From a virus, in the UHGV virus genome UHGV-0126570: a stretch of DNA of 59,916 nt; one strand, given 5' to 3'. The position numbers and the translations under genes are program-made. Under the pieces are notes generated by a model that did no database searches, was not told where the DNA came from, and saw nothing but the letters and a program-made list of their open reading frames with translations. Position 1 is the stretch's first letter. Each line of letters starts with the position of its first letter. This document shows positions 28,853 to 51,357 of the stretch, piece after piece.

Positions 28853-30360
28853 TGGCTGGTGGGCGCAAGATTAAATGCGTCACCAGCGATCCACGCTGGC
28901 GCGATATGGTAATCAAATACCGCTACAACTTTACCCAGGCTGTTGTTGATATATTCGGGATGTTTCCCTCCCACCAGCAGCAGGAGATTATCCAGTCCGT
29001 ACAGCAAAAAGGGAGCAGAACCACTGTTACCTCTGGTCACGGTACAGGGAAATCGTCGCTAACGGCTATGTTGTTGCTGATTTATTTGATTCTGTTCCCC
29101 GATGCCCGTGTCATCATTGTTGCTAACAAAATAGGTCAGGTTAAGACAGGTGTATTCAAATACGTTAAACAGTATTGGGCGAATGCCGTTAAGCGTCATG
29201 GGTGGTTACAGACCTATTTTGTCCTGTCTGACACCATGTTTTATGAACGCTCTCGAAAGGGGATCTGGGAAGTTCTCTGCAAAGGCTATCGACTCGGTAA
29301 CGAAGAAGCTCTGGCGGGGGAGCACGCGGCACATTTGCTTCTAATTCTGGATGAAGCATCAGGTATATCTGATAAAGCGATCGGCGTAATGACTGGCGCT
29401 CTGACTGAAGAAGATAACCGAATGTTGATGCTATCCCAGCCAACAAGGCCAAGTGGTTATTTCTACGATTCGCACCATTCTCAAGCTAAAACCCCAGACA
29501 ACCCGAAAGGGATCTGGACAGCAATTGTTCTTAACTCAGAAGAATCACCGTTCGTCACACCACAATTCATCAGGCAGAAACTCCTGGAATATGGCGGGCG
29601 CGATTCTATTGAGTACATGGCCAAGGTTCTTGGTCAGTTTCCTCGGGAGATTAACGGCTATTTGCTTGGTCGTGATGAATGCGATCGCGCTGCGCGGCGC
29701 AAGGTGTTGTTGGAGAAAAACTGGGGATGGGTGGCTACTGCTGACGTTGGTAACGGGCGAGACAAGTCAGTTCTTAATATCTGTAAAGTGTCTGGTCACC
29801 GGGAAAAGCGGCGTGTTGTTAACTTTAAGGTAATGGAAATGCCAGGGACTATGGACCCGCTGGCTTTTGCTGACTTTATATACAACGAATGCACGCCGGA
29901 TAAATACCCGAATATTACAATCGCGGTTGACGCAGACGGTTTTGGTTCAGATACCTGTGCGCAGCTGGTGCGCCGTGGGGCTAATCCGGTACGGATTCGG
30001 TGGGGGAAACCCATGTTTTCGAACAAAGACAAGGAGCGTTTTGTTAACCAGCGTGCCTACGCAAATATTATGGCTCGTGATGCCATAAAGTCAGGTCGTA
30101 TGCGAATAGACAGCGACCCTAAAACGGCAGAGCAAGCGTCAAAAATCCCCTTTTTACTTAATGAAGAAGGGAAGATGGCGATGATGCGCAAGGAGCACAT
30201 GCGGCAAAAGCTGAACATCAAATCACCTGACCGATGGGATACCTACTGCTTTACAATGCTGGTGGACTATGTTCCTGCTAATGAAGATATCGGCGCTGAA
30301 ATGGCTACCTTCCGCGATCAGGTTCTTGCAGATGTAGAAATGCCAGATCTGGATATTTGA
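28852..30360 (+). CDS. pacB: PacB-like terminase large subunit
   Basis: 502 aa; Walker A TSGHGTGKS, Walker B LLLILDEAS, C-terminal acidic nuclease-type motifs (ATADVGNGRD, AVDADGFG). Confidence 0.85.
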   Translation: MAGGRKIKCVTSDPRWRDMVIKYRYNFTQAVVDIFGMFPSHQQQEIIQSVQQKGSRTTVTSGHGTGKSSLTAMLLLIYLILFPDARVIIVANKIGQVKTGVFKYVKQYWANAVKRHGWLQTYFVLSDTMFYERSRKGIWEVLCKGYRLGNEEALAGEHAAHLLLILDEASGISDKAIGVMTGALTEEDNRMLMLSQPTRPSGYFYDSHHSQAKTPDNPKGIWTAIVLNSEESPFVTPQFIRQKLLEYGGRDSIEYMAKVLGQFPREINGYLLGRDECDRAARRKVLLEKNWGWVATADVGNGRDKSVLNICKVSGHREKRRVVNFKVMEMPGTMDPLAFADFIYNECTPDKYPNITIAVDADGFGSDTCAQLVRRGANPVRIRWGKPMFSNKDKERFVNQRAYANIMARDAIKSGRMRIDSDPKTAEQASKIPFLLNEEGKMAMMRKEHMRQKLNIKSPDRWDTYCFTMLVDYVPANEDIGAEMATFRDQVLADVEMPDLDI

Positions 30361-30431
30361 CATCCTCCACGCCCTGAAGGACGGGGTTTTACGGCGCACC
30401 GGATAAAGCCCCGGCAATGCGGGGCTTGTGA

Positions 30432-31469
30432 TTACCAGAGTTTAGCGGCGTGCTGTGTTTGGGAGAAAGTGAACCCGTAACGTTCTTCTATGGTTTTACC
30501 GTATCTTTTCCGCGCGTCTGTCAGTTTTATGCCTGTCAGGTCATCTCCGGATGTCATCATTACGTCTAACAACTCCAGATCCATTTTATTCAGTCTCGCC
30601 ATCGCTTCGCGTGCTGTCTGTATTTTACGCTCAATGATATGGCGAATAGCCGGATCGGCTTCCTCAAGCATTTTGGCTGATTTGTTCTTTAAGCTCTCAT
30701 TGCGGATGTCGATGTTTCGCAAGATGTATGACTTCGCAACATAGCTTGGTTGGTGTTTCTCCAGATCGCGAACGCGATAGAGACTAAAGTCACCAAGCAG
30801 GCCGCAAGGTATCGACTCAACCCCAGAATAAATAGTAATGCTGCGACGTTCGCCGACATTATTAACAACGGGCACTGTGGTGTTCGGAAGTTTTGCGAAC
30901 ACTAAGGCTCCGTGTGCGCCTACCCTGAATCGTGACAGAGCATTGCTGCCTTCAATGTTTGTTGTAAGCACTACATCTGTGTATCCATCTTTGCGCGCCC
31001 GGTAAACTTCCCCTTCAGGTTCTGATGCGAAAAAACGGCGCTCTTCTTCAAGTGCACCAACAATCTGCGAAAATATCTTGTTTTTCAGGCTTTTCTTTAT
31101 AATTGCATCATATTTTTTGAGCAGATTTTCGCGCGTAAATGAGCGGGTGGTGGTCGCGCTTTGCACAACAATATGCGTGCTTTGATTTGTGTCCTCGATA
31201 ATGAATGGGATCGGAGAATATACAGACTCAACAATGTTAGACGCTTTGCCGTCAGCGTTACGGCACAAGTCAACAAAGGCTTTCCATTCTGTGAGGCACT
31301 TTTCAGCTTCTTCTAGCACATTCTGATCATGTGTTAGTGCAACATGGCGGAATTCCTCGCCGGAATAACTGGTATCATGGAAAACAGAGTTTGCGACCAC
31401 CAGCTCTTTCCACCGTTCAGCGGTTTGCAGGAACCGTTTGTACTCTTTCTCGATCGACTTCTTACTCAT
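30432..31469 (-). CDS. Hypothetical protein (345 aa); candidate immunity-region regulator
   Basis: Only gene between pacB and the lox-like site, divergent from cre; three operator-like motifs lie in its upstream region (31488-31497, 31572-31582, 31666-31674). Repressor role is positional inference only. Confidence 0.3.
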   Translation of the reverse strand: MSKKSIEKEYKRFLQTAERWKELVVANSVFHDTSYSGEEFRHVALTHDQNVLEEAEKCLTEWKAFVDLCRNADGKASNIVESVYSPIPFIIEDTNQSTHIVVQSATTTRSFTRENLLKKYDAIIKKSLKNKIFSQIVGALEEERRFFASEPEGEVYRARKDGYTDVVLTTNIEGSNALSRFRVGAHGALVFAKLPNTTVPVVNNVGERRSITIYSGVESIPCGLLGDFSLYRVRDLEKHQPSYVAKSYILRNIDIRNESLKNKSAKMLEEADPAIRHIIERKIQTAREAMARLNKMDLELLDVMMTSGDDLTGIKLTDARKRYGKTIEERYGFTFSQTQHAAKLW

Positions 31470-31487
31470 TATTCCTACTCGATTTAG

Positions 31488-31497
31488 TTTTCTAACA
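31488..31497 (-). promoter_or_regulatory. Operator-like half-site (TGTTAGAAAA on minus strand)
   Basis: About 20 bp upstream of the 31469 start codon of the minus-strand gene. Confidence 0.4.
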
Positions 31498-31669
31498 TAA
31501 AATTACTATGACAAATCTATGCCGAATAACAGGGTGAGTAAAGGATCAAGATGCATTTTTTTATCATCCAATTTAGAAAATTCTGCTTAAAAACTGCCAG
31601 GCATAACTTAAAGCCCACACCAGCAATGCATTGCCCATCTGCGCGGAAAGGAAAAAAATTCCTAAATTT

Positions 31670-31703
31670 CTAACTTTAGATAATTGGCATTATTTAAAGT
31701 TAG
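31670..31703. other. lox-like recombination site (13-bp inverted arms, 8-bp spacer)
   Basis: CTAACTTTAGATA-ATTGGCAT-TATTTAAAGTTAG; arms are 12/13 inverted matches and resemble loxP arms (ATAACTTCGTATA); 152 bp upstream of the Cre-like gene. Confidence 0.6.
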
Positions 31704-31854
31704 GCTATAATCATGGGTAGATGATCAGTATTGACATCACTGAAAATACGTGCCTCGAATCAAAGGCTTGAATCTTGAAAATTAACTTATAGCTACCCTG
31801 TCATTTTTATATTTTTCGCGTAGCGTCATCTGTATATAGAGGTTAAATAGTTTC

Positions 31855-32883
31855 ATGAGTGAATTAATTATCTCTGGCAGTTCCGGTGGTTTTCTGCGCA
31901 ACATTGGCAAAGAGTACCAGGAAGCCGCAGAAAACTTTATGCGGTTCATGAATGACCAGGGGGCTTATGCGCCGAATACTTTGCGCGATCTCCGGTTAGT
32001 GTTTCACTCCTGGGCGAGATGGTGTCACGCTCGCCAGCTCGCCTGGTTCCCGATCTCACCAGAGATGGCCCGCGAGTATTTTCTTCAGCTGCATGATGCC
32101 GATCTGGCTTCGACCACCATTGATAAGCACTACGCCATGCTGAACATGCTGCTTTCGCATTGTGGCCTTCCGCCACTTTCGGATGATAAAAGTGTTTCTC
32201 TGGCTATGCGGCGCATCCGGCGCGAAGCGGCAACTGAAAAAGGCGAACGAACAGGCCAGGCTATACCGCTGCGGTGGGACGATCTGAAACTGCTCGACGT
32301 CCTGTTGTCCAGGTCAGAACGGCTGGTGGACCTGCGCAACCGGGCTTTTCTCTTTGTTGCATACAATACGCTGATGCGTATGTCGGAAATCTCGCGTATT
32401 CGTGTAGGAGATCTGGACCAAACAGGTGACACTGTCACGCTACATATTTCACACACGAAGACAATAACGACCGCCGCCGGGCTTGATAAGGTGCTTTCCC
32501 GTCGCACTACCGCTGTGCTGAATGACTGGCTGGATGTTTCCGGGCTTCGCGAACATCCTGACGCAGTGCTGTTCCCGCCGATACACCGTAGCAATAAGGC
32601 CAGGATCACGACAACGCCCCTTACTGCACCTGCAATGGAGAAAATATTCAGCGACGCCTGGGTGTTGCTGAATAAAAGAGATGCTACGCCAAACAAAGGA
32701 AGATACCGGACGTGGACCGGGCATAGTGCACGCGTCGGGGCCGCTATTGATATGGCTGAAAAGCAGGTGTCTATGGTGGAGATCATGCAGGAAGGAACCT
32801 GGAAGAAACCGGAAACACTTATGCGGTATCTTCGCCGTGGCGGCGTGTCTGTGGGGGCTAATAGCCGCCTGATGGATTCGTAA
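31855..32883 (+). CDS. cre: Cre-like tyrosine site-specific recombinase
   Basis: Alignable along its length with P1 Cre: SVSLAMRRIRRE, LRNRAFLFVAYNTLMRMSEISRIRVGDL, GHSARVGAAIDMA, C-terminal Tyr region. Confidence 0.85.
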   Translation: MSELIISGSSGGFLRNIGKEYQEAAENFMRFMNDQGAYAPNTLRDLRLVFHSWARWCHARQLAWFPISPEMAREYFLQLHDADLASTTIDKHYAMLNMLLSHCGLPPLSDDKSVSLAMRRIRREAATEKGERTGQAIPLRWDDLKLLDVLLSRSERLVDLRNRAFLFVAYNTLMRMSEISRIRVGDLDQTGDTVTLHISHTKTITTAAGLDKVLSRRTTAVLNDWLDVSGLREHPDAVLFPPIHRSNKARITTTPLTAPAMEKIFSDAWVLLNKRDATPNKGRYRTWTGHSARVGAAIDMAEKQVSMVEIMQEGTWKKPETLMRYLRRGGVSVGANSRLMDS

Positions 32884-32956
32884 ATTAAAATTCTAACACA
32901 TCTTTTTAGATTAACGCCTTTGCTGTAAAGTACCCTCGCCTATTTAGGAGGGTGCT

Positions 32957-33301
32957 TTGCAGAGTCAAATCACGGAATCAAGACGCTTCAAGGTGGATGG
33001 TTACACCGTAACCTTCGCCGCTGGTGTTAAGAACAGTCATGCTGTCGTTGTGTTCGGCATCATGACCGGGCTTGAGGCCGTCCCTGTGTTTACCCTCGAA
33101 AAAAACTGGCGAAATCTGGAGGAAGCAGAAAGCTACGTCCGGAAAGTAACCATCATTGCCGCCGAAAAACTCCTGGCCCACTATCAGGAAAATTATCGCA
33201 CTATGGTCGAGAAGATTAATCTCGCTTTCACTCGCCCCACTACCGGCTTTATTGCACCGGATACTAATGCAGGTCGATATCCGGCAAGGGGGCGTCGGTG
33301 A
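32957..33301 (+). CDS. Hypothetical protein (114 aa), first gene of cre-proximal accessory operon
   Basis: TTG start with AGGAGGG RBS. Confidence 0.4.
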   Translation: MQSQITESRRFKVDGYTVTFAAGVKNSHAVVVFGIMTGLEAVPVFTLEKNWRNLEEAESYVRKVTIIAAEKLLAHYQENYRTMVEKINLAFTRPTTGFIAPDTNAGRYPARGRR

Positions 33302-33774
33302 AAACTTATTACCCATCTCTGAATTGTTACCCGTCTTCCTATCCAGAATTATCCGGGAAGCTGTTAGCTCTATTAGCTAAAGCACCTACGGAATGGTTTA
33401 AGCCAGTCGTTATCAATCCACACTTCCTGGATTACGGATCTGTTCGCACTCGTAACGAACTCAAAAACCTACTGGCGCATGGATTCATTCGACACCGTGC
33501 CGGGAAAGGCTATCAGTTAGCGATTGCGCCAGAAGAGGCCGTGCGGCTATTCGCATATCGTGACAGCCAGACAAAAGCTCGGGTAATAGCTCAAATACTT
33601 CATAACGGCAGCACCTATGCCCGCCAGTTTGGCGGCGACACGTCGCAGTTCTTGCGGGCGGTGCGATCGCTGGAGGAGCAAGGAGTTATTGAAAGTTCCT
33701 GTCTTCCTGTTCCTACCGTTCCACATATCAAACGTCGGGTTTACACCTTCACGCAGAGAGCTAAAAAACAATGA
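33298..33774 (+). CDS. Hypothetical protein with winged-helix-like segments
   Basis: GTG start overlapping the upstream stop; two helix-turn-wing-like stretches (NLLAHGFIRHRAGKGYQLA, LRAVRSLEEQGVIES). Confidence 0.4.
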   Translation: MKTYYPSLNCYPSSYPELSGKLLALLAKAPTEWFKPVVINPHFLDYGSVRTRNELKNLLAHGFIRHRAGKGYQLAIAPEEAVRLFAYRDSQTKARVIAQILHNGSTYARQFGGDTSQFLRAVRSLEEQGVIESSCLPVPTVPHIKRRVYTFTQRAKKQ

Positions 33775-34265
33775 TTTACGTAAAAGTGAAACGCCTACAT
33801 CCGGCAGCAAAACTTCCAGCTTATGCCACCTCCGGATCGGCGGCGATGGATTTTGAGGCTGTTGAAATAAAACCATGCGTCGATAGCAATGGTGCAATTT
33901 CCTCAAGCTGGTGGGTGTATACCGGACTGGCTATGGAGATCCCGCCCGGCTGGTGTCTGAAACTCTATCCGCGATCAGGATTGGGCTGCAAAAAACATAC
34001 TCGCCTGGCTAACTGCGTAGGAATTATCGACTCCGATTATCGCGGCGAAATCATGGCAAAACTGATTACTGATCCAGGCGGGGAAGGCGTTTGTCTCAAG
34101 CCTGGAATGGCTGTCATGCAAGGAATTTTTGAGCGTGTTGAACAAGTCTCACTAGTCGAGGTTGAGGAACTCAACGAAACGGAGCGTGGTGCTGGTGGCT
34201 TTGGTAGCACATCGGAAGGCCACTTTGAAATTAAGCGTTCACCGCTTCAGTACGAAAAGTTATAA
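33771..34265 (+). CDS. dut: dUTP diphosphatase (trimeric dUTPase)
   Basis: Motifs AAMDF, RSGLG, GIIDSDYRGEI, ERGAGGFGSTS in canonical order. Confidence 0.85.
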   Translation: MIYVKVKRLHPAAKLPAYATSGSAAMDFEAVEIKPCVDSNGAISSSWWVYTGLAMEIPPGWCLKLYPRSGLGCKKHTRLANCVGIIDSDYRGEIMAKLITDPGGEGVCLKPGMAVMQGIFERVEQVSLVEVEELNETERGAGGFGSTSEGHFEIKRSPLQYEKL

Positions 34266-34279
34266 GCAGAGAAAAGACT

Positions 34280-34957
34280 ATGAATAACAAGCCAACGAAA
34301 GAGCTTTTTAAGCTCCTTCCCAAATACAAAGCTCACAAAAACGTTAGTGCATCGAAAATCAAAAATGTTGTTATTTTCGGAGTAACTGATACCCCACTTT
34401 GGGGCAGCATCGAACTCGTTGAACCTAAAGGGGCAACAGTTTGTGTTGACGCAATGTTTTTACAAAAACACCGACCAAAAACTGGCGGGTATCTGATCGT
34501 TTATGAAAACGGTTATCTGTTCTATGCCCCGGAGAAACCATTTGAGGAACGCTATGGCCTGGTTAACGACGCCTCCAAAAATGGAACCACGGTCATCATT
34601 ACGGATGACAACGGCGAGATGATTAATCTTACCGGGAGCGTAACTATTTCTGCTGGTGGCATCACCACCCAGCAAGAAGAAATCGACCTTGAAGCAGCCG
34701 ACTTTTCTGACGCGCTGATGTGGCTGAAGGATGGCAAGAAAGTTGCTCGACGCGGGTGGAACGGCGAAAACCAATTTTGCTGGCTGGTTCCTGAAGGACA
34801 GTACCCGGCACGAATGGAAGCCATTAAGGGATATTTCCCCGGCGACCTCGTTCCGTATGGTGCTTATTTCGCCTTAAAAAATGCACAAGGTGTAGTTGTT
34901 CCGTGGGTGCCTTCAGTTGGCGACCTGCTGGCCTGTGACTGGTTTGTTGTGGAGTGA
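34280..34957 (+). CDS. Fusion protein: unknown N-terminal domain plus C-terminal DUF2829-like (Tad2-like) domain
   Basis: C-terminal DALMWLKDGKKVARRGWNGENQFCWLVPEG ... VVPWVPSVGDLLACDWFVVE follows the DUF2829 signature (A..W.K.GKKV.RRGWNG ... PW.pS..DLLA.DW.vvE) as recalled from memory. Confidence 0.45.
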   Translation: MNNKPTKELFKLLPKYKAHKNVSASKIKNVVIFGVTDTPLWGSIELVEPKGATVCVDAMFLQKHRPKTGGYLIVYENGYLFYAPEKPFEERYGLVNDASKNGTTVIITDDNGEMINLTGSVTISAGGITTQQEEIDLEAADFSDALMWLKDGKKVARRGWNGENQFCWLVPEGQYPARMEAIKGYFPGDLVPYGAYFALKNAQGVVVPWVPSVGDLLACDWFVVE

Positions 34958-34963
34958 TTTGAC

Positions 34964-35731
34964 ATGGAAAGCACTAAAACAATTCAATACCGCTTGCGTA
35001 ATGGCCTGCTGGTGGCTGTTAACGCCGACATGTCACTGCCGTTTGACACGATTGAACGCACTATCATGACGTATCTCGGCTTTAATGAAGAGCTGAATGA
35101 AGAGCATGGCGTAGCTATATGGAGTGATGCAGACAGCGGCGTTCGTCGTTACATCACCGCCAGGGGCAAAGACTACTCTCTGGATGAACTGTTTGCCCTT
35201 GCGCAGTCTTTCGAATGTGTAGCATTAGACCTGTTTAATGATCCTGCTATAGCGCAACGACTTATACGCGAGCTTGGGCTATCCGTTACACCAATTATAT
35301 TTAAAAATGGCAGCCTGACTGGCACATGGCGCGTAGAACGCATCTCAAACTACCTTCCATATAACCGACAGTTAAATGGAGTAATCTCCGGCGTTAATCA
35401 GCCCGTAGCGTGTGAAAATGTAAACCTAGTTGTCGCTGTTTTGGCAACCGCATGTCGTGTTATCGGTTTGGCTAAACAGGCATTTATTCATTTCCCAAAT
35501 GGTGCAGAAGGTAGCGCAGAGATTATCGCGTGTGATTTCGAATTTACCTGGATGCTACGCGAATATCTGGACCAAACAGTATTCCGTGCCGAAGAACTGG
35601 ATATGTATATCACGTCAACGATTCCAGACGATGTGCGAGCTGAAGCAATCGCTACAGCCAGGGCGAAATGCCGTGCGGCGATTGCAGAACAGGCCAAAGA
35701 AGAAGTTAAGGAAGTGGCAGATGGCGACTAA
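34964..35731 (+). CDS. Hypothetical protein (255 aa), partner of the terminase paralog
   Basis: Translationally coupled to the downstream TerL-like gene; no similarity to PacA. Confidence 0.45.
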   Translation: MESTKTIQYRLRNGLLVAVNADMSLPFDTIERTIMTYLGFNEELNEEHGVAIWSDADSGVRRYITARGKDYSLDELFALAQSFECVALDLFNDPAIAQRLIRELGLSVTPIIFKNGSLTGTWRVERISNYLPYNRQLNGVISGVNQPVACENVNLVVAVLATACRVIGLAKQAFIHFPNGAEGSAEIIACDFEFTWMLREYLDQTVFRAEELDMYITSTIPDDVRAEAIATARAKCRAAIAEQAKEEVKEVADGD

Positions 35732-36815
35732 GAGCAATATTTATAAAGATCCGCGCTGGCTGTCGCTGGTGGAGAAATATAAAGACAATTGGGTACTGGC
35801 AGCAAAAGAATTGTTTGATATTGATTTAAGCCACCAGCAACAACAAATTGTTGAAGCTATACAGCCCAATAATGCAAAAGCTACTGTCACCACTCCGTAT
35901 GGGATCGGACGACCGCAAGTGCTTGCTGTTATTAGTACCCTTTATACGATTATGTATCCTGATTCCCGGACAGTAATTGTTTATCCAAAATCAAATGTTT
36001 GCAAAAGAGGAATTGTTGCATATGTGTGGCAATGTTGGGAGGCATTGCTGAAAAAACAACCTTTTATCATTGAGTATTTTAAGGTCGGTGATAGCGGTCT
36101 GATGTTCAATGAATTTTGGGGAATGTGCTTTTGTAACTACCGCCTTAACTATGAAGATAGCATTGCAGGTCACTACGCCGACCATCTTTTATTCATTATT
36201 GTGGATTCCGCACATATCAGCGATCGGGCATACAGCATTGTGTGGGCAAGCATGACTAGTGGTGATTCACGCATATTGCTCACTTCAATTCCGTCACCAG
36301 AGGAAATAGGCTTTTTTTATGATTCACATCATGGACGTGCTTTAGCTGAAGATAATCCGAGTGGTGTATATAAAGCCATTAAGCTGAGCGCGGAGGATTC
36401 ACCATTTATTACCCAAGAATATCTTGATCATTTTGCCGAAAGGTATGGCGGGCGAAATAGTGATGACTATCGTCGTATGATTCTTGGTGAGTTCCCTGGT
36501 ATTAGGGAGGCTGTTCTTGAATCAGATATGCCGAAGACAATGCGCTTTTCGATGCCTGATGGTAGTGAATGGACAATGCCATTACGAGTGATAGCCCGGC
36601 ATCATGCGCAGCACCACGCCAAAAAACATGGCGTCACGACATTAGAATGGTTGAAATCGCACACTATTCCACTCTTCACTGCAGATCACAATGCTATCGT
36701 TGAGTGGGCAAAAACAATTCCGTGGGAGCATGTCGCTGAATATGCTCACATGCTAAAACCGCCGAAAGACAGGCGCGAAATTAGCTGGCTGACAGCCGAA
36801 AAAATCATTGAATGA
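35721..36815 (+). CDS. Terminase large-subunit (PacB) N-domain paralog with degenerate Walker A/B and no nuclease domain
   Basis: Aligns with PacB residues ~10-300 (DPRW..., SHQQQ, FYDSHH, SPF, YGGR, FP), but Walker A is TTPYGIGRP instead of TSGHGTGKS and Walker B LLFIIVDSAH instead of LLLILDEAS; protein ends after ~364 aa. Confidence 0.6.
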   Translation: MATKSNIYKDPRWLSLVEKYKDNWVLAAKELFDIDLSHQQQQIVEAIQPNNAKATVTTPYGIGRPQVLAVISTLYTIMYPDSRTVIVYPKSNVCKRGIVAYVWQCWEALLKKQPFIIEYFKVGDSGLMFNEFWGMCFCNYRLNYEDSIAGHYADHLLFIIVDSAHISDRAYSIVWASMTSGDSRILLTSIPSPEEIGFFYDSHHGRALAEDNPSGVYKAIKLSAEDSPFITQEYLDHFAERYGGRNSDDYRRMILGEFPGIREAVLESDMPKTMRFSMPDGSEWTMPLRVIARHHAQHHAKKHGVTTLEWLKSHTIPLFTADHNAIVEWAKTIPWEHVAEYAHMLKPPKDRREISWLTAEKIIE

Positions 36816-36860
36816 TATCAACAAAAAGCCCGCCTGGTCTGGCGGGCTTCTTTATGCGCC

Positions 36861-37250
36861 TTAAATCACAGGTCTATAATCAAACTCCCCACTTCGGGCA
36901 TCATTAATGACATGAGTGATCACACCAAAAACAGCATTACTGCCCGTGTATCCATCGTCATCCACTGGTAACGCCTCTTTCTTCCCGGTGCTTAAATCCT
37001 CCAGGTGCTGGCGCGGATACTTCCTGTATCTCTTTATGCGATATTCACCCTCCATAGCGCATATAAGCAGTGAACCATCAACCGGAGTAAGTGAGGAATC
37101 AACCACCAGCAAAGCACCTTGCAATATTCCCTCACGGTGATGGCTGTCTGCCGCCCGCATGAAGTAGGTCGCGGAAGGATGTCTGATTAGTTGCTGATCA
37201 AGAGAAATGCGGCTCTCTGCATAATCCGCCGCAGGAGAAGGGAAGCCCAT
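36861..37250 (-). CDS. humD: UmuD/HumD-like S24 peptidase
   Basis: S24 LexA/UmuD C-terminal domain pattern (GILQGALLVVD...GEYRIKRY) in a 129-aa protein. Confidence 0.75.
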   Translation of the reverse strand: MGFPSPAADYAESRISLDQQLIRHPSATYFMRAADSHHREGILQGALLVVDSSLTPVDGSLLICAMEGEYRIKRYRKYPRQHLEDLSTGKKEALPVDDDGYTGSNAVFGVITHVINDARSGEFDYRPVI

Positions 37251-37373
37251 AGCGTTTTACCTCAATGATACTGTTTATTCATACAGTATACATTGAAAAG
37301 GCATAGTTTGTGAAAGCGGGGTTTGTAGGCGCGCCACGCTGGGGGCTAATCACATTTCTCCCCCATCTTGCCG

Positions 37374-37625
37374 TTATTTTTTTGGTGCATCCTCGTTCTG
37401 ATACACCGGATCGCTCCCTTTTGGCAACTGGAGGCTTAACTGCCGGTAGTGCCGTAGCCGTTCCATGAAATAGGTGCGCAGGTTCTCCGGCTGCTCACGG
37501 GCTACCTGTTCCGCTATGACGGGTATGTTCAATCGCTCTTTGTACGCCACACCGCTGGCAGCCAGATCAACGTTAACCTTATCCCGTTCTTCCTGACTTT
37601 TAGCTGCAATATTCCAGTCGCTCAT
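37374..37625 (-). CDS. Hypothetical small protein (83 aa)
   Basis: ORF only. Confidence 0.35.
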
Positions 37626-37627
37626 AT

Positions 37628-37900
37628 TTAAGGCTCACATTTCCAGATGGTATTCTGAACACCCGAACCGGGCGCAAGATGAGGGTTAGCGTTCGCGCTA
37701 TGCTGATATACGGCTTTAGACTTTCCATATTGCTGACAGGCTTTATCTGCGGTTTTTTGCAGGCTATCCAGGCCATACCAACCATCTGACTGGATGCTAA
37801 CCTTTTCTCCGTCATTGTATTGCACCATAGCACACCCAGACATAGCCAACATCGCACCGACAATAACGCTTTTACCTAAAAATCTACGCAACATATACAA
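37628..37900 (-). CDS. Predicted lipoprotein
   Basis: Signal peptide ending in lipobox LAMSGC; mature part ~65 aa. Confidence 0.5.
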
Positions 37901-37939
37901 AAATCCCCTCTGTGAATTGAGGGGATTTTAGCATGGTGA

Positions 37940-38698
37940 TCAGATATCGGCCTTATTCGGAATTTTATCAGCCACCAGCGGCAATAAAGCCTTCGCCATT
38001 TCATGAACCAACATGGCATCAATGACGCCTAGCGTATGGCCCGGCTTAATCTTTAATGCGGCCTCAAGATAGCCTCTTTCCAGAGTGGTTTTTACGCTTT
38101 TCTTGGGCGATTGTTGGGAACTATCCGGAAAATCCGGATGGTTGCCAGCCTCGTAAGCTACCCGCAGCCAGTGCATGAATGTTTCAGTGGACACACAACC
38201 ACAGTCCACATCGATTTTCCCGCGTTGCTGTTCCAGCCATTGCCCAAAATCCAACCTGTAAGCCTTACTTTCAAGTTCATCACCATTGAACTCGACTTGA
38301 TGCGACGCTATGAGAGCGGCTTCGTATTGTTCGTGAGTGACAACTGACTGGTATTCATCGCTATCAAGGTCATGAATTGGAAGCTCAATCTCACAACAAA
38401 AATTGCGCCCAAAGAACGTGTCTTTTTTGTGGTCTGAGCCAAAAGCAAAAGTCGCGCATGGCGCCATTAAATTGGCACTGAGCAGGCGACAATCGATCAT
38501 ACCATCAGGCCACCCGCCGCACTTAGGCAGCTCCTTCACTAACAAGTCGATAAGCTTCATTTTTTTATCATCTTTGCAAGCCGCCAAAGCCATTTGGGCA
38601 AGTGCCAATACTTCATCTGCCGTATATCCAGCACCGTGACCATACATTTCGATACGGGAAATAATATCTGAAATACGCTCTTTAGTGATTCTTGTCAT
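37940..38698 (-). CDS. Hypothetical Cys-rich protein (~252 aa)
   Basis: ORF track start 38716; the ATG at 38698 gives an ATGA overlap with the upstream stop. Confidence 0.4.
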   Translation of the reverse strand: MTRITKERISDIISRIEMYGHGAGYTADEVLALAQMALAACKDDKKMKLIDLLVKELPKCGGWPDGMIDCRLLSANLMAPCATFAFGSDHKKDTFFGRNFCCEIELPIHDLDSDEYQSVVTHEQYEAALIASHQVEFNGDELESKAYRLDFGQWLEQQRGKIDVDCGCVSTETFMHWLRVAYEAGNHPDFPDSSQQSPKKSVKTTLERGYLEAALKIKPGHTLGVIDAMLVHEMAKALLPLVADKIPNKADI

Positions 38699-38904
38699 AG
38701 TTTTATTTCCTTGCATGGTTCGCCTTTACGGCAAACAGCTACACGGTCATTTCTTACATTAACCACAGTCACCGTTCCGTCATCGCATTGAATAACGATG
38801 AAAGGGTGTTCATTCTCTTTTGTGCAATGTTGCTGTTCTCCAGCCATTGCAGCCGGAGGATCAAATAGCGCCAGAACAAATGCCAACCTTAAAAAATGCT
38901 TCAT
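38695..38904 (-). CDS. Small secreted protein
   Basis: N-terminal signal peptide MKHFLRLAFVLALFDPPAAMA; four Cys in the mature part. Confidence 0.45.
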   Translation of the reverse strand: MKHFLRLAFVLALFDPPAAMAGEQQHCTKENEHPFIVIQCDDGTVTVVNVRNDRVAVCRKGEPCKEIKL

Positions 38905-39159
38905 TTGGCCTTATCCGTTATCAAAATTGGAATATCCGTTATCACGAGCGTGATATCCGTTATGAAGTGGGGAATAAGACCACTTACCAATACCCTCCGC
39001 CTGACTCAAAGTTGGCGATAAGCCAGGCTGCGAAAAGAGTAACCCCGCTCCAAAAACCACACTCCACCGTACCCCATTTAACACCACCAGCTAATAAAAT
39101 AAATAAACCGCAAAGGCATACAAACAAAAAAGTAATCCAAAATTTCTTTCTGTTTTTCA

Positions 39160-46484: not shown

Positions 46485-47063
46485 ATGCAGAAACAGAGTT
46501 ATTGGGAGAAACAGAGACAAAAAGCCATGCAAAAATTGGCTGACCCAGCCTGGCGAGAGGAACAAAGGGCAAAGCGCCTTCAACAAGCTCAACGCCAGCA
46601 GCAGCGAGCGAGAGAAAAAGCCGCATCGCCTGAATATCGGCAAAAGAAAATTGAAAAAGCAAAGCAATATGAACAGCGGAGAAAAGATAAAGCGGTATCC
46701 GCTCCGCCCAAAAAAACACGCACGTCACGCGGCCTGAAGGGCAGATCACTCACAGCCGATGAACGCCGGATACAGACCGCTATCGGTACTCTCCCCTGCA
46801 TTGCCTGCCATATTCACGGGCAACATAGCCCAGTGGTATCCCTGCACCATATCTTCGGGAGAACGGCAGAGAACGCGCATAAATATGTCCTCCCTTTGTG
46901 TAAATGGCACCACCAGTACGCAGCGCCAGCCGAGGTCCGAGAACAATATCCCTGGCTGGTCCCTGTTCATGCTGATGGAAAAATAGGCGGAAAAGCAGAT
47001 TTCATGCGGCACAATGCCGATGAAATGACGTTGTATCAGATGGCGATTGAATTGATAAATTAG
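46485..47063 (+). CDS. Ref-like HNH endonuclease (basic disordered N-terminus plus His-Me finger core)
   Basis: N-terminal ~90 aa highly basic (QKQRQKAMQK...RRKDK); C-terminal LPCIACH..HGQH..SLHHIFGR..H..LPLCKWHH. Architecture matches P1 Ref; the identity is an inference. Confidence 0.4.
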   Translation: MQKQSYWEKQRQKAMQKLADPAWREEQRAKRLQQAQRQQQRAREKAASPEYRQKKIEKAKQYEQRRKDKAVSAPPKKTRTSRGLKGRSLTADERRIQTAIGTLPCIACHIHGQHSPVVSLHHIFGRTAENAHKYVLPLCKWHHQYAAPAEVREQYPWLVPVHADGKIGGKADFMRHNADEMTLYQMAIELIN

Positions 47064-50651: not shown

Positions 50652-50677
50652 AGGCCGCCATGTGCGGCCTTTTTTTG
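50652..50677 (+). terminator. Intrinsic terminator-like hairpin immediately upstream of a gene (possible attenuator or sRNA end)
   Basis: AGGCCGC-catgt-GCGGCCT followed by TTTTTTT, 27 bp before the ATG at 50704. Confidence 0.5.
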
Positions 50678-50703
50678 TATCCGTCATCCGTGGAGGAAGG
50701 ACA

Positions 50704-51357
50704 ATGGAAAAGATCGCAATATTCAGCCTGACCACCAGCAAGCCTCAAATGCTCACTGCAATACTGAAAGACGGTGCTCTCATTATTAACGAAGTAAAAC
50801 CCCTTCCCGCGTCAGCATTGGAGCAAAAGCAAAAAATTCCTCCAGCTATAGCAGCCCTGCGGAAAAGCAAATTTAAGGTACTGGTAGACGAAATTACGCC
50901 AACGATCTCCGCTGGCACCGGAGCAAGCCAGGTGACTCTCAAGACCCGTCATGCCGATGGCAGAGCAGCAATCATCGTCGGGATGGAAAGATACAGAGAG
51001 TTAAAACTCCAGAAGCTATTATCCCTGCCGCAAAATAACAAAGGTGCTTTCGAAATCCCCGACTCTATCGTTGATACCGAATACAACGGTAACGGAGAAG
51101 AAGTCTACAGGGTGAACTGGCAGGATATCAGGCCGGAGCATATTCTGATGATCCTGTGTTGCTACGCGACCGTATACCACAACGTTGCCAGTGCAGATTA
51201 CGTAGAGCGGATGACCGGCACAGTCGAGAAAGAGCAAAAAACAGGCATACTCGCTTCGTTCCTGTCCATTATTGGGCATGAAAAAGTTGAAGCAGGCACC
51301 TCCCAGCCAAAGTCACTGGCTGGGAAAGAAGTTGATGAAGATACCGTGATACTTTGA
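50704..51357 (+). CDS. Hypothetical protein (218 aa)
   Basis: ORF track starts at 50662; the ATG at 50704 has GGAGG upstream and lies after the hairpin. Confidence 0.45.
   Translation: MEKIAIFSLTTSKPQMLTAILKDGALIINEVKPLPASALEQKQKIPPAIAALRKSKFKVLVDEITPTISAGTGASQVTLKTRHADGRAAIIVGMERYRELKLQKLLSLPQNNKGAFEIPDSIVDTEYNGNGEEVYRVNWQDIRPEHILMILCCYATVYHNVASADYVERMTGTVEKEQKTGILASFLSIIGHEKVEAGTSQPKSLAGKEVDEDTVIL

What the first reader, a model, noticed from the sequence alone, without database searches (positions are those of the whole stretch)
32957..36815. Uncharacterised six-gene operon at the cre-proximal cargo position
Directly downstream of the Cre-like gene is a tightly coupled plus-strand operon (overlapping stops and starts throughout): a 114-aa protein, a 158-aa winged-helix-like protein, dUTPase, a fusion protein with a C-terminal DUF2829/Tad2-like domain, a 255-aa protein, and a PacB paralog with degenerate ATPase motifs. 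In P1 the equivalent position after cre carries ref, mat and the EcoP1I res/mod system, so this looks like a swapped cargo slot. The mix of a nucleotide-metabolism enzyme, a putative signal-sponge domain and a disabled packaging ATPase does not match any system I can name.
Basis: partly seen in the sequence, partly recalled or inferred. Interest (0 to 1): 0.8.

Follow-up and report, generated by a model that had tools for sequence, protein, structure and literature searches.

The report
Early accessory operon of D6-type phage-plasmid
The six genes are real, but they are a string of separate accessory modules of a known P1-related plasmid-phage (D6 type), including an immune-signal sponge, a dUTPase and a previously undescribed dead copy of the DNA-packaging ATPase, rather than one new six-part system.

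Summary
The six plus-strand ORFs exist at the stated coordinates. The dUTPase, the C-terminal Tad2/DUF2829 domain and the PacB paralog with ruined Walker motifs are all confirmed.

The window is a D6-type phage-plasmid (99.7% identical to pTB423). The "Cre-like" gene is the Dre orthologue, next to a rox site.

Genes 1-5 are orf117-orf113 of published phage D6. They are fixed backbone in every D6-like element examined, not swappable cargo. Only gene 6 and what follows it (phd/doc, type I R-M) vary.

Genes 4-6 (Tad2-fusion, IsaA, PacB') form a P1-family module that sits after ssb in P1-like phages. All combinations of the three occur, so the six genes are not one system.

An operator-like motif shared with the c1, lpa and ref promoter regions lies between dre and gene 1. 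This suggests early expression controlled by the C1 repressor.

Best reading: a counter-defence and host-takeover operon.

The new element is PacB'. It is a PacB-derived pseudo-ATPase under purifying selection, with no nuclease domain, fused to a widespread unmodelled ~95-aa phage domain. It always overlaps isaA, and it carries old, recombining alleles of its N-terminal domain. Its function is unknown.

The parts
31671..31702 (-). rox recombination site (target of the Dre recombinase)
   Evidence: One mismatch to the canonical 32-bp rox sequence, which I recalled from memory; zero matches in shuffles. The D6 record annotates half a rox site at the equivalent position.
31684..31711 (+). sigma-70 promoter-like site upstream of the recombinase gene (TTGGCA-16-TATAAT, 11/12)
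   Evidence: This is a consensus match only. It is the only strong promoter-like site upstream of the block.
31855..32883 (+). Dre-type (Cre-like) tyrosine recombinase, 342 aa
   Evidence: PF00589 at 5e-17. 41% identical to P1 Cre. Annotated 'similar to P1 gene cre' in D6.
32881..32901 (+). operator-like motif TAAATTAAAATTCTAACACAT (probable D6-type C1 operator) between the recombinase gene and g1
   Evidence: One of at least 13 sites of the motif AAATTAATTTTCTAACA in the window. Others lie upstream of c1, upstream of lpa and on both sides of ref. Two sites were recovered by a PWM that had not been trained on them. The site is conserved in D6 and five other D6-like loci while the rest of the spacer diverges.
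32920..32968 (+). leader hairpin that buries the g1 Shine-Dalgarno sequence (32946-32952) and the TTG start codon (32957-32959)
   Evidence: RNA fold -26.2 kcal/mol, z-score -4.2 against shuffles. The stem is conserved, with one U.G to U-A change in the L014 lineage.
32957..33301 (+). g1, 114 aa, D6 orf117, function unknown
   Evidence: phrog_1968 at 4e-48, unknown function. Among 50,697 phage records it is found only in D6. dN/dS 0.19 against the L014 lineage.
33298..33774 (+). g2, 158 aa, D6 orf116, function unknown; possibly two winged-helix-like halves (unproven)
   Evidence: phrog_6669 at 3e-98. No Pfam hit. Homologues occur only in D6-like elements. dN/dS 0.05. The PDB profile search gave only EutK HTH at E 0.57.
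33771..34265 (+). g3, homotrimer-type dUTPase (Dut), 164 aa, D6 orf115
   Evidence: PF00692 and NF001862 both above their cut-offs. Best PDB match 8y1q at 2e-25, aligned through motif V.
34280..34957 (+). g4, 225 aa: a variable N-terminal domain (aa 1-136) fused to a Tad2-family signal-sponge domain (aa 137-225)
   Evidence: PF11195 at 1.8e-22. ModTad2 9EIB at 5.5e-20. 73% identical to SJ46 gp048. The Tad2 part has dN = 0 against three lineages, while the N-terminal part is 67-75% identical at DNA level with omega 0.4-0.5.
34964..35731 (+). g5, IsaA homologue, 255 aa, D6 orf113
35721..36497 (+). g6 N-terminal domain (aa 1-259): PacB-derived terminase-type ATPase fold with the catalytic motifs lost
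   Evidence: BLAST against PacB 37%, E 3e-62. The AF2 N-terminal domain has pLDDT about 90. Top Foldseek hits are TerL ATPase domains: 7ks4, 2o0h, 4idh, 6z6d. Walker A and B are degenerate in every paralogue. omega is 0.18-0.30.
36498..36815 (+). g6 C-terminal 'domain X' (aa about 270-364), which replaces the terminase nuclease domain
   Evidence: 184 representative proteins at E <= 1e-3, mostly stand-alone proteins of about 95 aa. No Pfam model matches. omega is 0.07-0.09. 97% identical between alleles whose N-terminal domains are 51% identical.
36832..36847 (+). weak terminator-like hairpin after g6, facing the convergent humD-like gene (36861-37250, minus strand)
   Evidence: (consensus scan only).

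Best explanation
The block is the recombinase-proximal early accessory operon of a D6-type phage-plasmid. It is a chain of independently inherited modules, not one machine. The modules are:
(i) g1-g2-dut, specific to the D6 lineage;
(ii) a Tad2-family sponge carrying a variable N-terminal domain;
(iii) the P1-family pair isaA-pacB'.

Proposed working (inferred): when C1 repression is lifted, on infection or induction, the operon is transcribed from the dre-g1 spacer or by read-through from the dre promoter.
- Dut hydrolyses dUTP, which keeps uracil out of replicating phage DNA.
- The Tad2 domain soaks up nucleotide immune signals. Its nearest characterised relative, ModTad2, binds His-ADPR of type II Thoeris and cUMP/cCMP of Pycsar.
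- PacB' cannot hydrolyse ATP or cut DNA. It most likely acts as a binding protein that uses a terminase-shaped surface to engage a partner of the real PacB ATPase domain or a host factor that recognises that domain. In doing so it brings or regulates its C-terminal domain X, probably together with IsaA.

What is shown: gene content, homologies, loss of catalytic motifs, purifying selection, modular distribution, and the operator-like motif.

What is inferred: timing of expression, the ligand of the sponge, and every step of the PacB'/IsaA mechanism.
For: Identity of the element:
- 99.7% identical to pTB423 and 98% to phage D6 over genes 1-5.
- A rox site and a Dre-type recombinase are present.

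Modularity:
- g1-g5 are present in 6/6 sampled D6-like contexts, g6 in 1/6. D6 lacks g6.
- SJ46 has g4+g5 after ssb. MH422554, 813R1 and pCREC-532_2 have g5+g6 after ssb without g4.
- PLSDB counts: IsaA in 474 records, full-length PacB' in 163, the Tad2 domain at >=95% identity in 197.
- The full six-gene block is in 45 of 5,426 complete E. coli genomes.

Counter-defence flavour:
- The Tad2 domain scores above the Pfam cut-off and is 45% identical to ModTad2.
- It has dN = 0 across lineages.
- ModTad2 ligands are taken from bioRxiv 10.1101/2024.01.03.573942 and PMC12393519.
- Tad2 was already reported in 93% of D6-like and 56% of P1-like phage-plasmids (bioRxiv 10.1101/2025.09.12.675607).

Early control:
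- The operator-like motif at 32881-32901 is shared with the c1, lpa and ref regions and is conserved across lineages.
- In P1 the homologous isaA lies in the ssb operon behind the C1 operator Ossb.

PacB' is functional but not an enzyme:
- It has the TerL ATPase fold.
- Walker A and B are lost, in a different way in each allele.
- omega is 0.18-0.30 for the N-terminal domain and 0.07-0.09 for the C-terminal domain.
- The same two domains occur fused in the opposite order in another P1-like element.

Accessory status: P1 isaA and isaB are non-essential in a CRISPRi screen (PMC10695390).
Against: - There is no experimental datum for any of the six products in this element.
- No convincing sigma-70 promoter was found in the dre-g1 spacer (only TTTAGA-15-TAAAGT). 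The operator identity rests on motif recurrence and positional analogy with P1, not on binding data. The block could instead be read through from the dre promoter and be expressed in lysogens.
- The g1 leader hairpin hides the ribosome-binding site, so g1 may be poorly translated.
- g1, g2 and IsaA have no recognisable function, so 'counter-defence' rests on one domain out of six genes.
- Tad2 proteins are normally about 90-aa homotetramers. Whether a 225-aa fusion still assembles and binds a signal is unknown.
- The ligand-contacting residues could not be checked.
- Nothing links PacB' to any particular partner.
Confidence: 0.55

Rival explanations
1. Inter-phage competition or exclusion. The isaA-pacB' cassette, possibly with neighbours, is carried for the benefit of the resident element. 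PacB' would be a dominant-negative terminase subunit. It would bind PacA, the portal or PacB of superinfecting P1/D6-type phages or satellites and jam their packaging motor, while the resident pacase, only 37% identical, escapes.
For: - PacB' keeps the N-terminal 50 residues and many surface motifs of PacB (W13, QQ, FYDSHH, GEFP are invariant) while losing catalysis.
- It shows presence/absence polymorphism next to other competitive cargo: phd/doc and type I R-M.
- Its N-terminal domain exists as old alleles about 50% identical that recombine into otherwise 97-100% identical backbones. That pattern is expected for a specificity determinant in an arms race.
- PacB itself is 92% conserved between the same lineages.
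Against: - No model of a known defence system matches.
- If the operator inference is right, the gene is silent in the lysogen, which is when exclusion would be needed.
- In P1-like phages it sits in an early lytic operon with ssb.
- omega of 0.18-0.30 is ordinary purifying selection, not positive selection.
- Nothing shows that it binds PacA or the portal.
Confidence: 0.15
2. Housekeeping DNA metabolism and packaging accessory. The block supports the phage's own replication and packaging. Dut sanitises the nucleotide pool, g2 is a DNA-binding regulator, and IsaA/PacB' modulate the timing or fidelity of pac cleavage by the real PacAB enzyme.
For: - The dUTPase is canonical.
- In P1-like phages the g4-g6 module follows ssb in a replication-type early operon.
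- PacB' derives from PacB.
- g1-g5 are fixed in the D6 lineage, as backbone genes are.
Against: - A Tad2-family sponge has no known housekeeping role.
- isaA is dispensable for P1 plaque formation (PMC10695390).
- PacB' is absent from D6 itself and from about two thirds of IsaA-carrying plasmids. The pacase therefore does not need it.
- IsaA shows no similarity to PacA.
Confidence: 0.15
3. A single novel six-component system, in which all six products cooperate in one defence or anti-defence mechanism.
For: The genes are tightly packed on one strand with three overlapping junctions. The whole block is conserved in two diverged D6-like lineages.
Against: - Every sub-combination exists in nature: g1-g5 (D6), g4-g5 (SJ46), g5-g6 (MH422554, pCREC-532_2), g5 alone (P1).
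- g4-g6 lie in a different operon in P1-like phages.
- The block is a recombinational mosaic with independent allele replacement in g4 and g6.
Confidence: 0.05
4. PacB' is a decaying duplicate (pseudogene in the making) with no function of its own.
For: Catalytic motifs are lost, and differently in each allele. The nuclease domain is missing.
Against: - The 364-366-aa ORF is intact in 163 plasmid records across three allele classes.
- dN/dS is 0.07-0.30 at saturated dS.
- The start always overlaps the isaA stop.
- Non-catalytic motifs are invariant.
- The same two-domain combination occurs in permuted order.
Confidence: 0.05

Closest known systems
Phage D6 orf117-orf113 region (NC_050154 / MF356679; first three genes also in AY753669)
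   Same: Same five genes in the same order directly after the Dre/Cre-like recombinase, about 98% DNA identity.
   Different: D6 lacks pacB'. After isaA it carries pdcA-doc-phd-orf109 on the other strand. Its DUF2829 protein is 146 aa because of an in-frame loss of aa 28-99 of the N-terminal domain.
P1-family early operon ssb-(DUF2829 fusion)-isaA-(pacB') upstream of hxr (SJ46, 'Punavirus P1' MH422554, vB_EcoM-813R1, pCREC-532_2)
   Same: Same gene order for g4-g5-g6. The isaA/pacB' start-stop overlap is the same. Protein identities are 73% (g4), 48% (g5) and 52% (g6).
   Different: The genomic place differs (after ssb, not after the recombinase). g4 or g6 are often absent. In P1 proper, IS1 follows isaA and the unrelated isaB follows IS1.
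ModTad2 / Tad2 sponge family (PF11195; PDB 9EIB, 8V3E, 8SME)
   Same: The C-terminal 89 residues align end to end with ModTad2 at 45% identity, E 5.5e-20.
   Different: Here the domain is the C-terminal part of a 225-aa protein with a variable N-terminal domain. Oligomeric state and ligand are untested.
PacB / terminase large subunit (TerL)
   Same: The N-terminal 259 residues are 37% identical to the resident PacB and have the TerL ATPase fold.
   Different: The Walker A lysine and Walker B acidic pair are lost. The RNase H-like nuclease domain is replaced by an unrelated domain of about 95 aa. It is not a terminase.
P1 cre-c8-ref-mat-res-mod region
   Same: Same position relative to the recombinase and lox/rox site. 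P1 also has C1 operators (Oref, Omat) just downstream of cre.
   Different: No gene is shared. Ref and Mat homologues of this element lie about 14-18 kb away, and there is no type III R-M system.

Membership tests
Tad2 / DUF2829 signal sponge (PF11195) | Sequence match to the family model above the curated cut-off | tested here: met
   80 bits against a cut-off of 25, aa 141-224 covering model positions 2-73 of 73.
Tad2 / DUF2829 signal sponge (PF11195) | Close similarity to a member with a solved structure and proven sponge activity | tested here: met
   ModTad2 9EIB E 5.5e-20, 40/89 identical over its full length. SPO1 Tad2 8SME E 6e-9.
Tad2 / DUF2829 signal sponge (PF11195) | Small single-domain protein (about 90 aa) that forms a homotetramer | tested here: not met
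   The protein is 225 aa with a 136-aa N-terminal extension. The oligomeric state cannot be tested here. D6 shows that most of the extension is dispensable.
Tad2 / DUF2829 signal sponge (PF11195) | Binds and sequesters a TIR- or cyclase-derived nucleotide signal; ligand-contacting residues conserved | not testable with these tools
   Residue lists were not available in the texts held. This needs binding assays.
Homotrimeric dUTPase | Family models above cut-off and the five conserved motifs, including the C-terminal motif V | tested here: met
   PF00692 54.2 against 22. NF001862 121.5 against 103. The alignment to 8y1q runs through GIIDSDYRGE and RGAGGFGST.
Terminase large subunit (PacB/TerL) | ASCE ATPase-domain fold of the TerL type | tested here: met
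   Foldseek top 30 hits are TerL ATPase domains, E down to 3e-7. 37% identity to PacB.
Terminase large subunit (PacB/TerL) | Intact Walker A lysine and Walker B acidic residues | tested here: not met
   GIGRPQ in place of GTGKSS, and IIVDSA in place of ILDEAS. All paralogues are degenerate, each differently.
Terminase large subunit (PacB/TerL) | C-terminal RNase H-like nuclease domain | tested here: not met
   Residues 260-364 do not align with PacB 265-502. They belong to a separate family of small proteins.
IsaA (P1 gp017) | Full-length sequence similarity to P1 IsaA (the family has no functional definition) | tested here: met
   48% identity over 258 aa, E 2e-88. phrog_2326 at 3e-133.
Winged-helix DNA-binding proteins (g2) | Significant match to a winged-helix family or structure | tested here: inconclusive
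   No Pfam or NCBIfam hit. The profile against PDB gives only EutK HTH at E 0.57. The sequence pattern is compatible with two wHTH-like halves.
Known anti-phage defence systems (PADLOC-DB) | Any component matching a defence-system model | tested here: not met
   The best E-values are 0.03-0.05, all short partial matches.
C1-controlled early operon of P1-type phages | A copy of the element's repressor operator at the operon's 5' end | tested here: inconclusive
   An operator-like motif at 32881-32901 is shared with the c1, lpa and ref regions and is conserved in relatives. C1 binding and the promoter are not shown. No P1-type operator is present.

The most novel reading that the evidence does not exclude
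isaA-pacB' is a new kind of terminase-mimic module. PacB' is a catalytically dead copy of the packaging ATPase whose fast-diverging, recombining N-terminal domain serves as bait for whatever recognises terminase: a host terminase-sensing immune receptor of the Avs type, or the PacA/portal of rival P1/D6-type phages and satellites. The constant C-terminal domain X, a widespread and uncharacterised small phage domain that is usually very acidic, would deliver the effect.
Probability: 0.15. Interest if true: 0.8.

Novelty: new variant of a known kind. Interest (0 to 1): 0.42.

Why it matters
D6- and P1-type phage-plasmids are common in clinical and livestock E. coli and Salmonella. Their accessory genes affect which hosts they can enter and persist in.

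The analysis turns an apparently exotic six-gene 'system' into separately testable pieces:
- a near-invariant Tad2-family sponge that can be assayed directly against Thoeris, Pycsar and CBASS;
- a probable C1 operator set for the D6 immunity type;
- a pseudo-terminase fused to an unmodelled phage domain found in at least 184 sequence clusters.

If PacB' turns out to be a terminase mimic, it would be a new tactic in phage-host or phage-phage conflict. It would also give a first functional handle on IsaA, a P1 gene that has gone unexplained since the genome was sequenced.

Tried and rejected
- IsaA as a PacA (small terminase) paralogue, which would make g5-g6 a duplicated pacase: no similarity.
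- P1 IsaB as a remnant of PacB': no similarity.
- Defence-system models: nothing.
- A P1-type late promoter (AAGTGAYT -22 box) or P1-type C1 operator in the dre-g1 spacer: not found.
- Domain X against PDB by profile: only 3ic3 at E 0.07. Against Pfam: only stray DUF5076 hits at E 0.007-0.09. Too weak to use.
- g6 C-terminal domain by AF2: pLDDT about 55, so not used for fold search.
- g2 as winged helix: not significant.
- g1: no homologue outside D6-like elements, and no PDB or Pfam hit.
- Covariation of the PacB' allele with the resident PacB: PacB is 92% identical between lineages whose PacB' N-terminal domains are 51% identical, so there is no simple match.
- Rfam: no hit in 30000-39000.
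- Literature on inactive terminase paralogues: nothing relevant found.
- The paper describing Dre/rox and the D6 genome paper are not in the library.

Full report
**1. The observation**

- g1: 32957-33301, 114 aa
- g2: 33298-33774, 158 aa
- g3: 33771-34265, 164 aa
- g4: 34280-34957, 225 aa
- g5: 34964-35731, 255 aa
- g6: 35721-36815, 364 aa from the ATG used by RefSeq

They start 73 nt after a 342-aa tyrosine recombinase gene (31855-32883). The junctions are -4, -4, +14, +6 and -11 nt.

Family searches confirm the following:
- g3 is a dUTPase. PF00692 and NF001862 are both above their cut-offs, and the alignment to PDB 8y1q runs through motif V.
- g4 aa 141-224 is a Tad2-like/DUF2829 domain at 80 bits against a cut-off of 25.
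- g6 aa 7-259 is a paralogue of the window's own PacB, 37% identical, E 3e-62. Walker A GHGTGKS has become PYGIGRP and Walker B LILDEAS has become IIVDSAH.

The 'winged-helix' label for g2 is unproven. There is no Pfam or NCBIfam hit. A profile of nine homologues finds only the EutK helix-turn-helix domain at E 0.57.

**2. What the element is**

The region is 99.7% identical to E. coli plasmid pTB423 and 98% identical to phage D6 over its first 2,748 nt.
- The minus-strand 345-aa gene at 30432-31469 is the C1 repressor (PF27008).
- A 32-bp site at 31671-31702 matches the rox sequence with one mismatch (the rox sequence is from my memory). The D6 record annotates a rox half-site at that position.
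- The 'Cre-like' gene is therefore the Dre orthologue, 41% identical to P1 Cre. That D6's Cre homologue is called Dre is from my own knowledge; the paper was not available.

**3. Backbone, not cargo**

In D6, g1-g5 are orf117, orf116, orf115 (dUTPase), orf114 (DUF2829) and orf113 ('similar to P1 isaA').

The same five genes follow the recombinase in all six D6-like contigs returned for a 73%-identical g2 homologue, and also in pCUVET20-PYO4.3.

What varies is g6 (present in one of those six, in pCUVET20 and here) and what follows it:
- pdcA-doc-phd in D6
- phd/doc in most others
- a type I R-M insertion in two

Among 5,426 complete E. coli genomes, 216 have some match and 45 have the whole block. 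g1 and g2 occur in no phage record other than D6.

**4. Genes 4-6 are a P1-family module found elsewhere**

- g5 is 48% identical to P1 IsaA.
- g4 is 73% identical to SJ46 gp048.
- g6 is 52% identical to a 364-aa protein of 'Punavirus P1' MH422554.

In P1-like phages these genes sit after ssb and before hxr:
- SJ46 has ssb-g4-isaA.
- MH422554, vB_EcoM-813R1 and pCREC-532_2 have ssb-isaA-pacB', with the same start/stop overlap.
- P1 itself has ssb-isaA-IS1-isaB, and IsaB is unrelated to g6.

In P1, ssb is preceded by the C1 operator Ossb. P1 isaA and isaB are non-essential (PMC10695390).

In PLSDB, IsaA is found in 474 records, full-length PacB' in 163, and the Tad2 domain at >=95% identity in 197.

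Because g1-g5, g4-g5, g5-g6 and g5 alone all exist in nature, the six genes are not an obligate unit.

**5. The Tad2-like protein**

Residues 137-225 align end to end with ModTad2 (9EIB) at 45% identity, E 5.5e-20, and more weakly with SPO1 Tad2 and HgmTad2.
- ModTad2 sequesters His-ADPR of type II Thoeris (bioRxiv 10.1101/2024.01.03.573942).
- In a second pocket it binds cUMP/cCMP of Pycsar (PMC12393519).
- A survey has already reported Tad2 in 93% of D6-like and 56% of P1-like phage-plasmids (bioRxiv 10.1101/2025.09.12.675607).

The domain shows no amino-acid change against pCUVET20, the L014 lineage or P1-like SJ46, at dS 0.07-0.16. The N-terminal 136 residues are a replaceable allele: 67-75% DNA identity and omega 0.4-0.5. 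In D6 they are largely deleted in frame.

**6. IsaA**

**7. PacB'**

The model's N-terminal domain (pLDDT about 90) matches TerL ATPase domains of P74-26, T4, Sf6 and HK97.

Every paralogue has lost the P-loop lysine and the Walker B acidic pair, each in its own way:
- Walker A: GIGRPQ, GIGQKT, GIGHKS, GIGETS
- Walker B: IIVDSA, IVTEAA, IVMDAA, IVINSA

W13, the QQ motif, FYDSHH and GEFP stay invariant. The nuclease domain is absent.

Residues of about 270-364 belong to a family I call domain X:
- 184 cluster representatives at E <= 1e-3, mostly stand-alone phage proteins of about 95 aa
- median net charge of -9
- no Pfam model
- only a borderline link to DUF5076/3ic3

Fusion partners of domain X include Zn-ribbon/Lar-like segments and DUF1351-type coiled-coil proteins. 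In another P1-like element (L018), domain X is fused to a PacB-like pseudo-ATPase in the opposite order, again with no P-loop lysine. That gene is cut by a Tn3-type transposase.

Selection analysis shows a working gene. omega is 0.18-0.30 for the N-terminal domain and 0.07-0.09 for domain X.

**8. Mosaic structure**

Against pCUVET20 the window is 97-100% identical at DNA level, except for two segments:
- 34250-34700, the g4 N-terminal domain
- 35600-36450, the isaA 3' end plus the PacB' N-terminal domain, at 53-75% identity

In PacB' the N-terminal domain is 51% identical and domain X 97% identical at protein level. dS is 1.39 for the N-terminal domain against 0.2 for domain X. Old alleles have therefore been recombined into a recent backbone. 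The real PacB is 92% identical between the same lineages.

**9. Expression signals**

- The only strong sigma-70-like site is at 31684-31711, upstream of dre. None reaches threshold in the dre-g1 spacer. A weak hairpin follows g6.
- A motif with consensus AAATTAATTTTCTAACA occurs at least 13 times in the window. One site is 20 nt upstream of c1. One is upstream of lpa. Two lie on either side of the Ref homologue, the same relative places as P1 Oref and Omat. One is at 32881-32901, overlapping the dre stop codon.
- Two of the sites were found by a PWM that had not been trained on them.
- The dre-g1 copy is conserved in D6 and five other loci while the middle of the spacer diverges.
- I take this motif to be the D6-type C1 operator. 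That is an inference; no binding data exist.
- The g1 leader folds into a 15-bp stem that buries the Shine-Dalgarno sequence and the TTG start (-26.2 kcal/mol, z -4.2).

**10. Conclusion**

The block is best read as an early accessory operon made of separable modules. One module has a clear counter-defence function by homology (the Tad2 sponge). One is a routine enzyme (Dut). Three products are unknown (g1, g2, IsaA). One is an undescribed pseudo-terminase fusion (PacB').

Compared with what is known:
- Five of the six genes are already annotated in phage D6.
- The Tad2 hit has been reported at survey level.
- I found no description of PacB' or domain X in the searchable literature.

Rivals that remain open for the isaA-pacB' pair are inter-phage exclusion by a dominant-negative terminase subunit and modulation of the element's own pacase. 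A single six-part system and a decaying pseudogene are both disfavoured by the distribution and selection data.

Noticed in passing
window 9160, 10365, 21311, 22562, 22718, 27003, 31480, 31658, 32881, 42976, 46404/46419, 47056, 57290/57305: A recurrent asymmetric motif of about 17-21 bp, AAATTAATTTTCTAACA. It lies in intergenic or promoter positions: upstream of c1, upstream of lpa, on both sides of the Ref homologue, and between dre and g1. It is probably the operator set of the D6-type C1 repressor. It is not annotated in the D6 record.
   Followed up: partly
window 31671-31702 and 31855-32883: A rox site (one mismatch to the canonical sequence) next to the recombinase gene. The 'Cre-like' gene is therefore the Dre orthologue of phage D6, a recombinase widely used as a genetic tool.
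   Followed up: yes
window 32920-32968: A stable, conserved hairpin in the g1 leader that sequesters the g1 ribosome-binding site and TTG start codon (-26.2 kcal/mol, z -4.2). It could be a translational control element or a processing site.
   Followed up: partly
window 34250-34700 and 35600-36450, compared with L007: Two sharply diverged allele cassettes (53-75% identity) embedded in an otherwise 97-100% identical backbone. They cover the N-terminal domain of the Tad2 fusion, and the isaA 3' end plus the PacB' pseudo-ATPase domain.
   Followed up: yes
window 36498-36815; proteins P0033-P0180: The C-terminal domain of PacB' defines a widespread phage domain of about 95 aa with no Pfam model. 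Its consensus is MPDGS.W.VP..IA..RA..YA...GD...SL.EDTLPLF..D..EI.DWA.NNMNW.DV. It is usually stand-alone and very acidic (median charge -9), and is sometimes fused to Zn-ribbon/Lar-like or DUF1351 proteins.
   Followed up: partly
L018 4001-4741 (NCBI GCA_024867085.4 contig ABHTOV040000060.1): A permuted version of PacB': domain X first, then a PacB-like pseudo-ATPase with P-loop GSGTGTT. It is truncated by a Tn3-family transposase gene and lies near a Ref-like (RecA_dep_nuc) gene.
   Followed up: partly
window 46623-47060 and 50665-51327: Homologues of P1 Ref (56% identical) and Mat (32% identical). In P1 these follow cre; here they lie 14-18 kb away, so the gene order differs between the D6 and P1 types.
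   Followed up: no
L001 2594-3034 (phage D6 orf114): D6's DUF2829 protein has an in-frame loss of residues 28-99 relative to the window's g4. Most of the N-terminal domain is therefore dispensable in a viable phage.
   Followed up: partly
L009 and L010 8313-10489: Some D6-like plasmids carry a type I restriction-modification insertion (hsdM, hsdS) just beyond phd/doc. This marks the true variable-cargo point of the region.
   Followed up: no
window 36861-37250 and 37374-37625 (minus strand): HumD-like (UmuD'/S24 peptidase) and Hot-like (DNA polymerase III theta) genes converge on the end of the block, as in D6 and P1.
   Followed up: no
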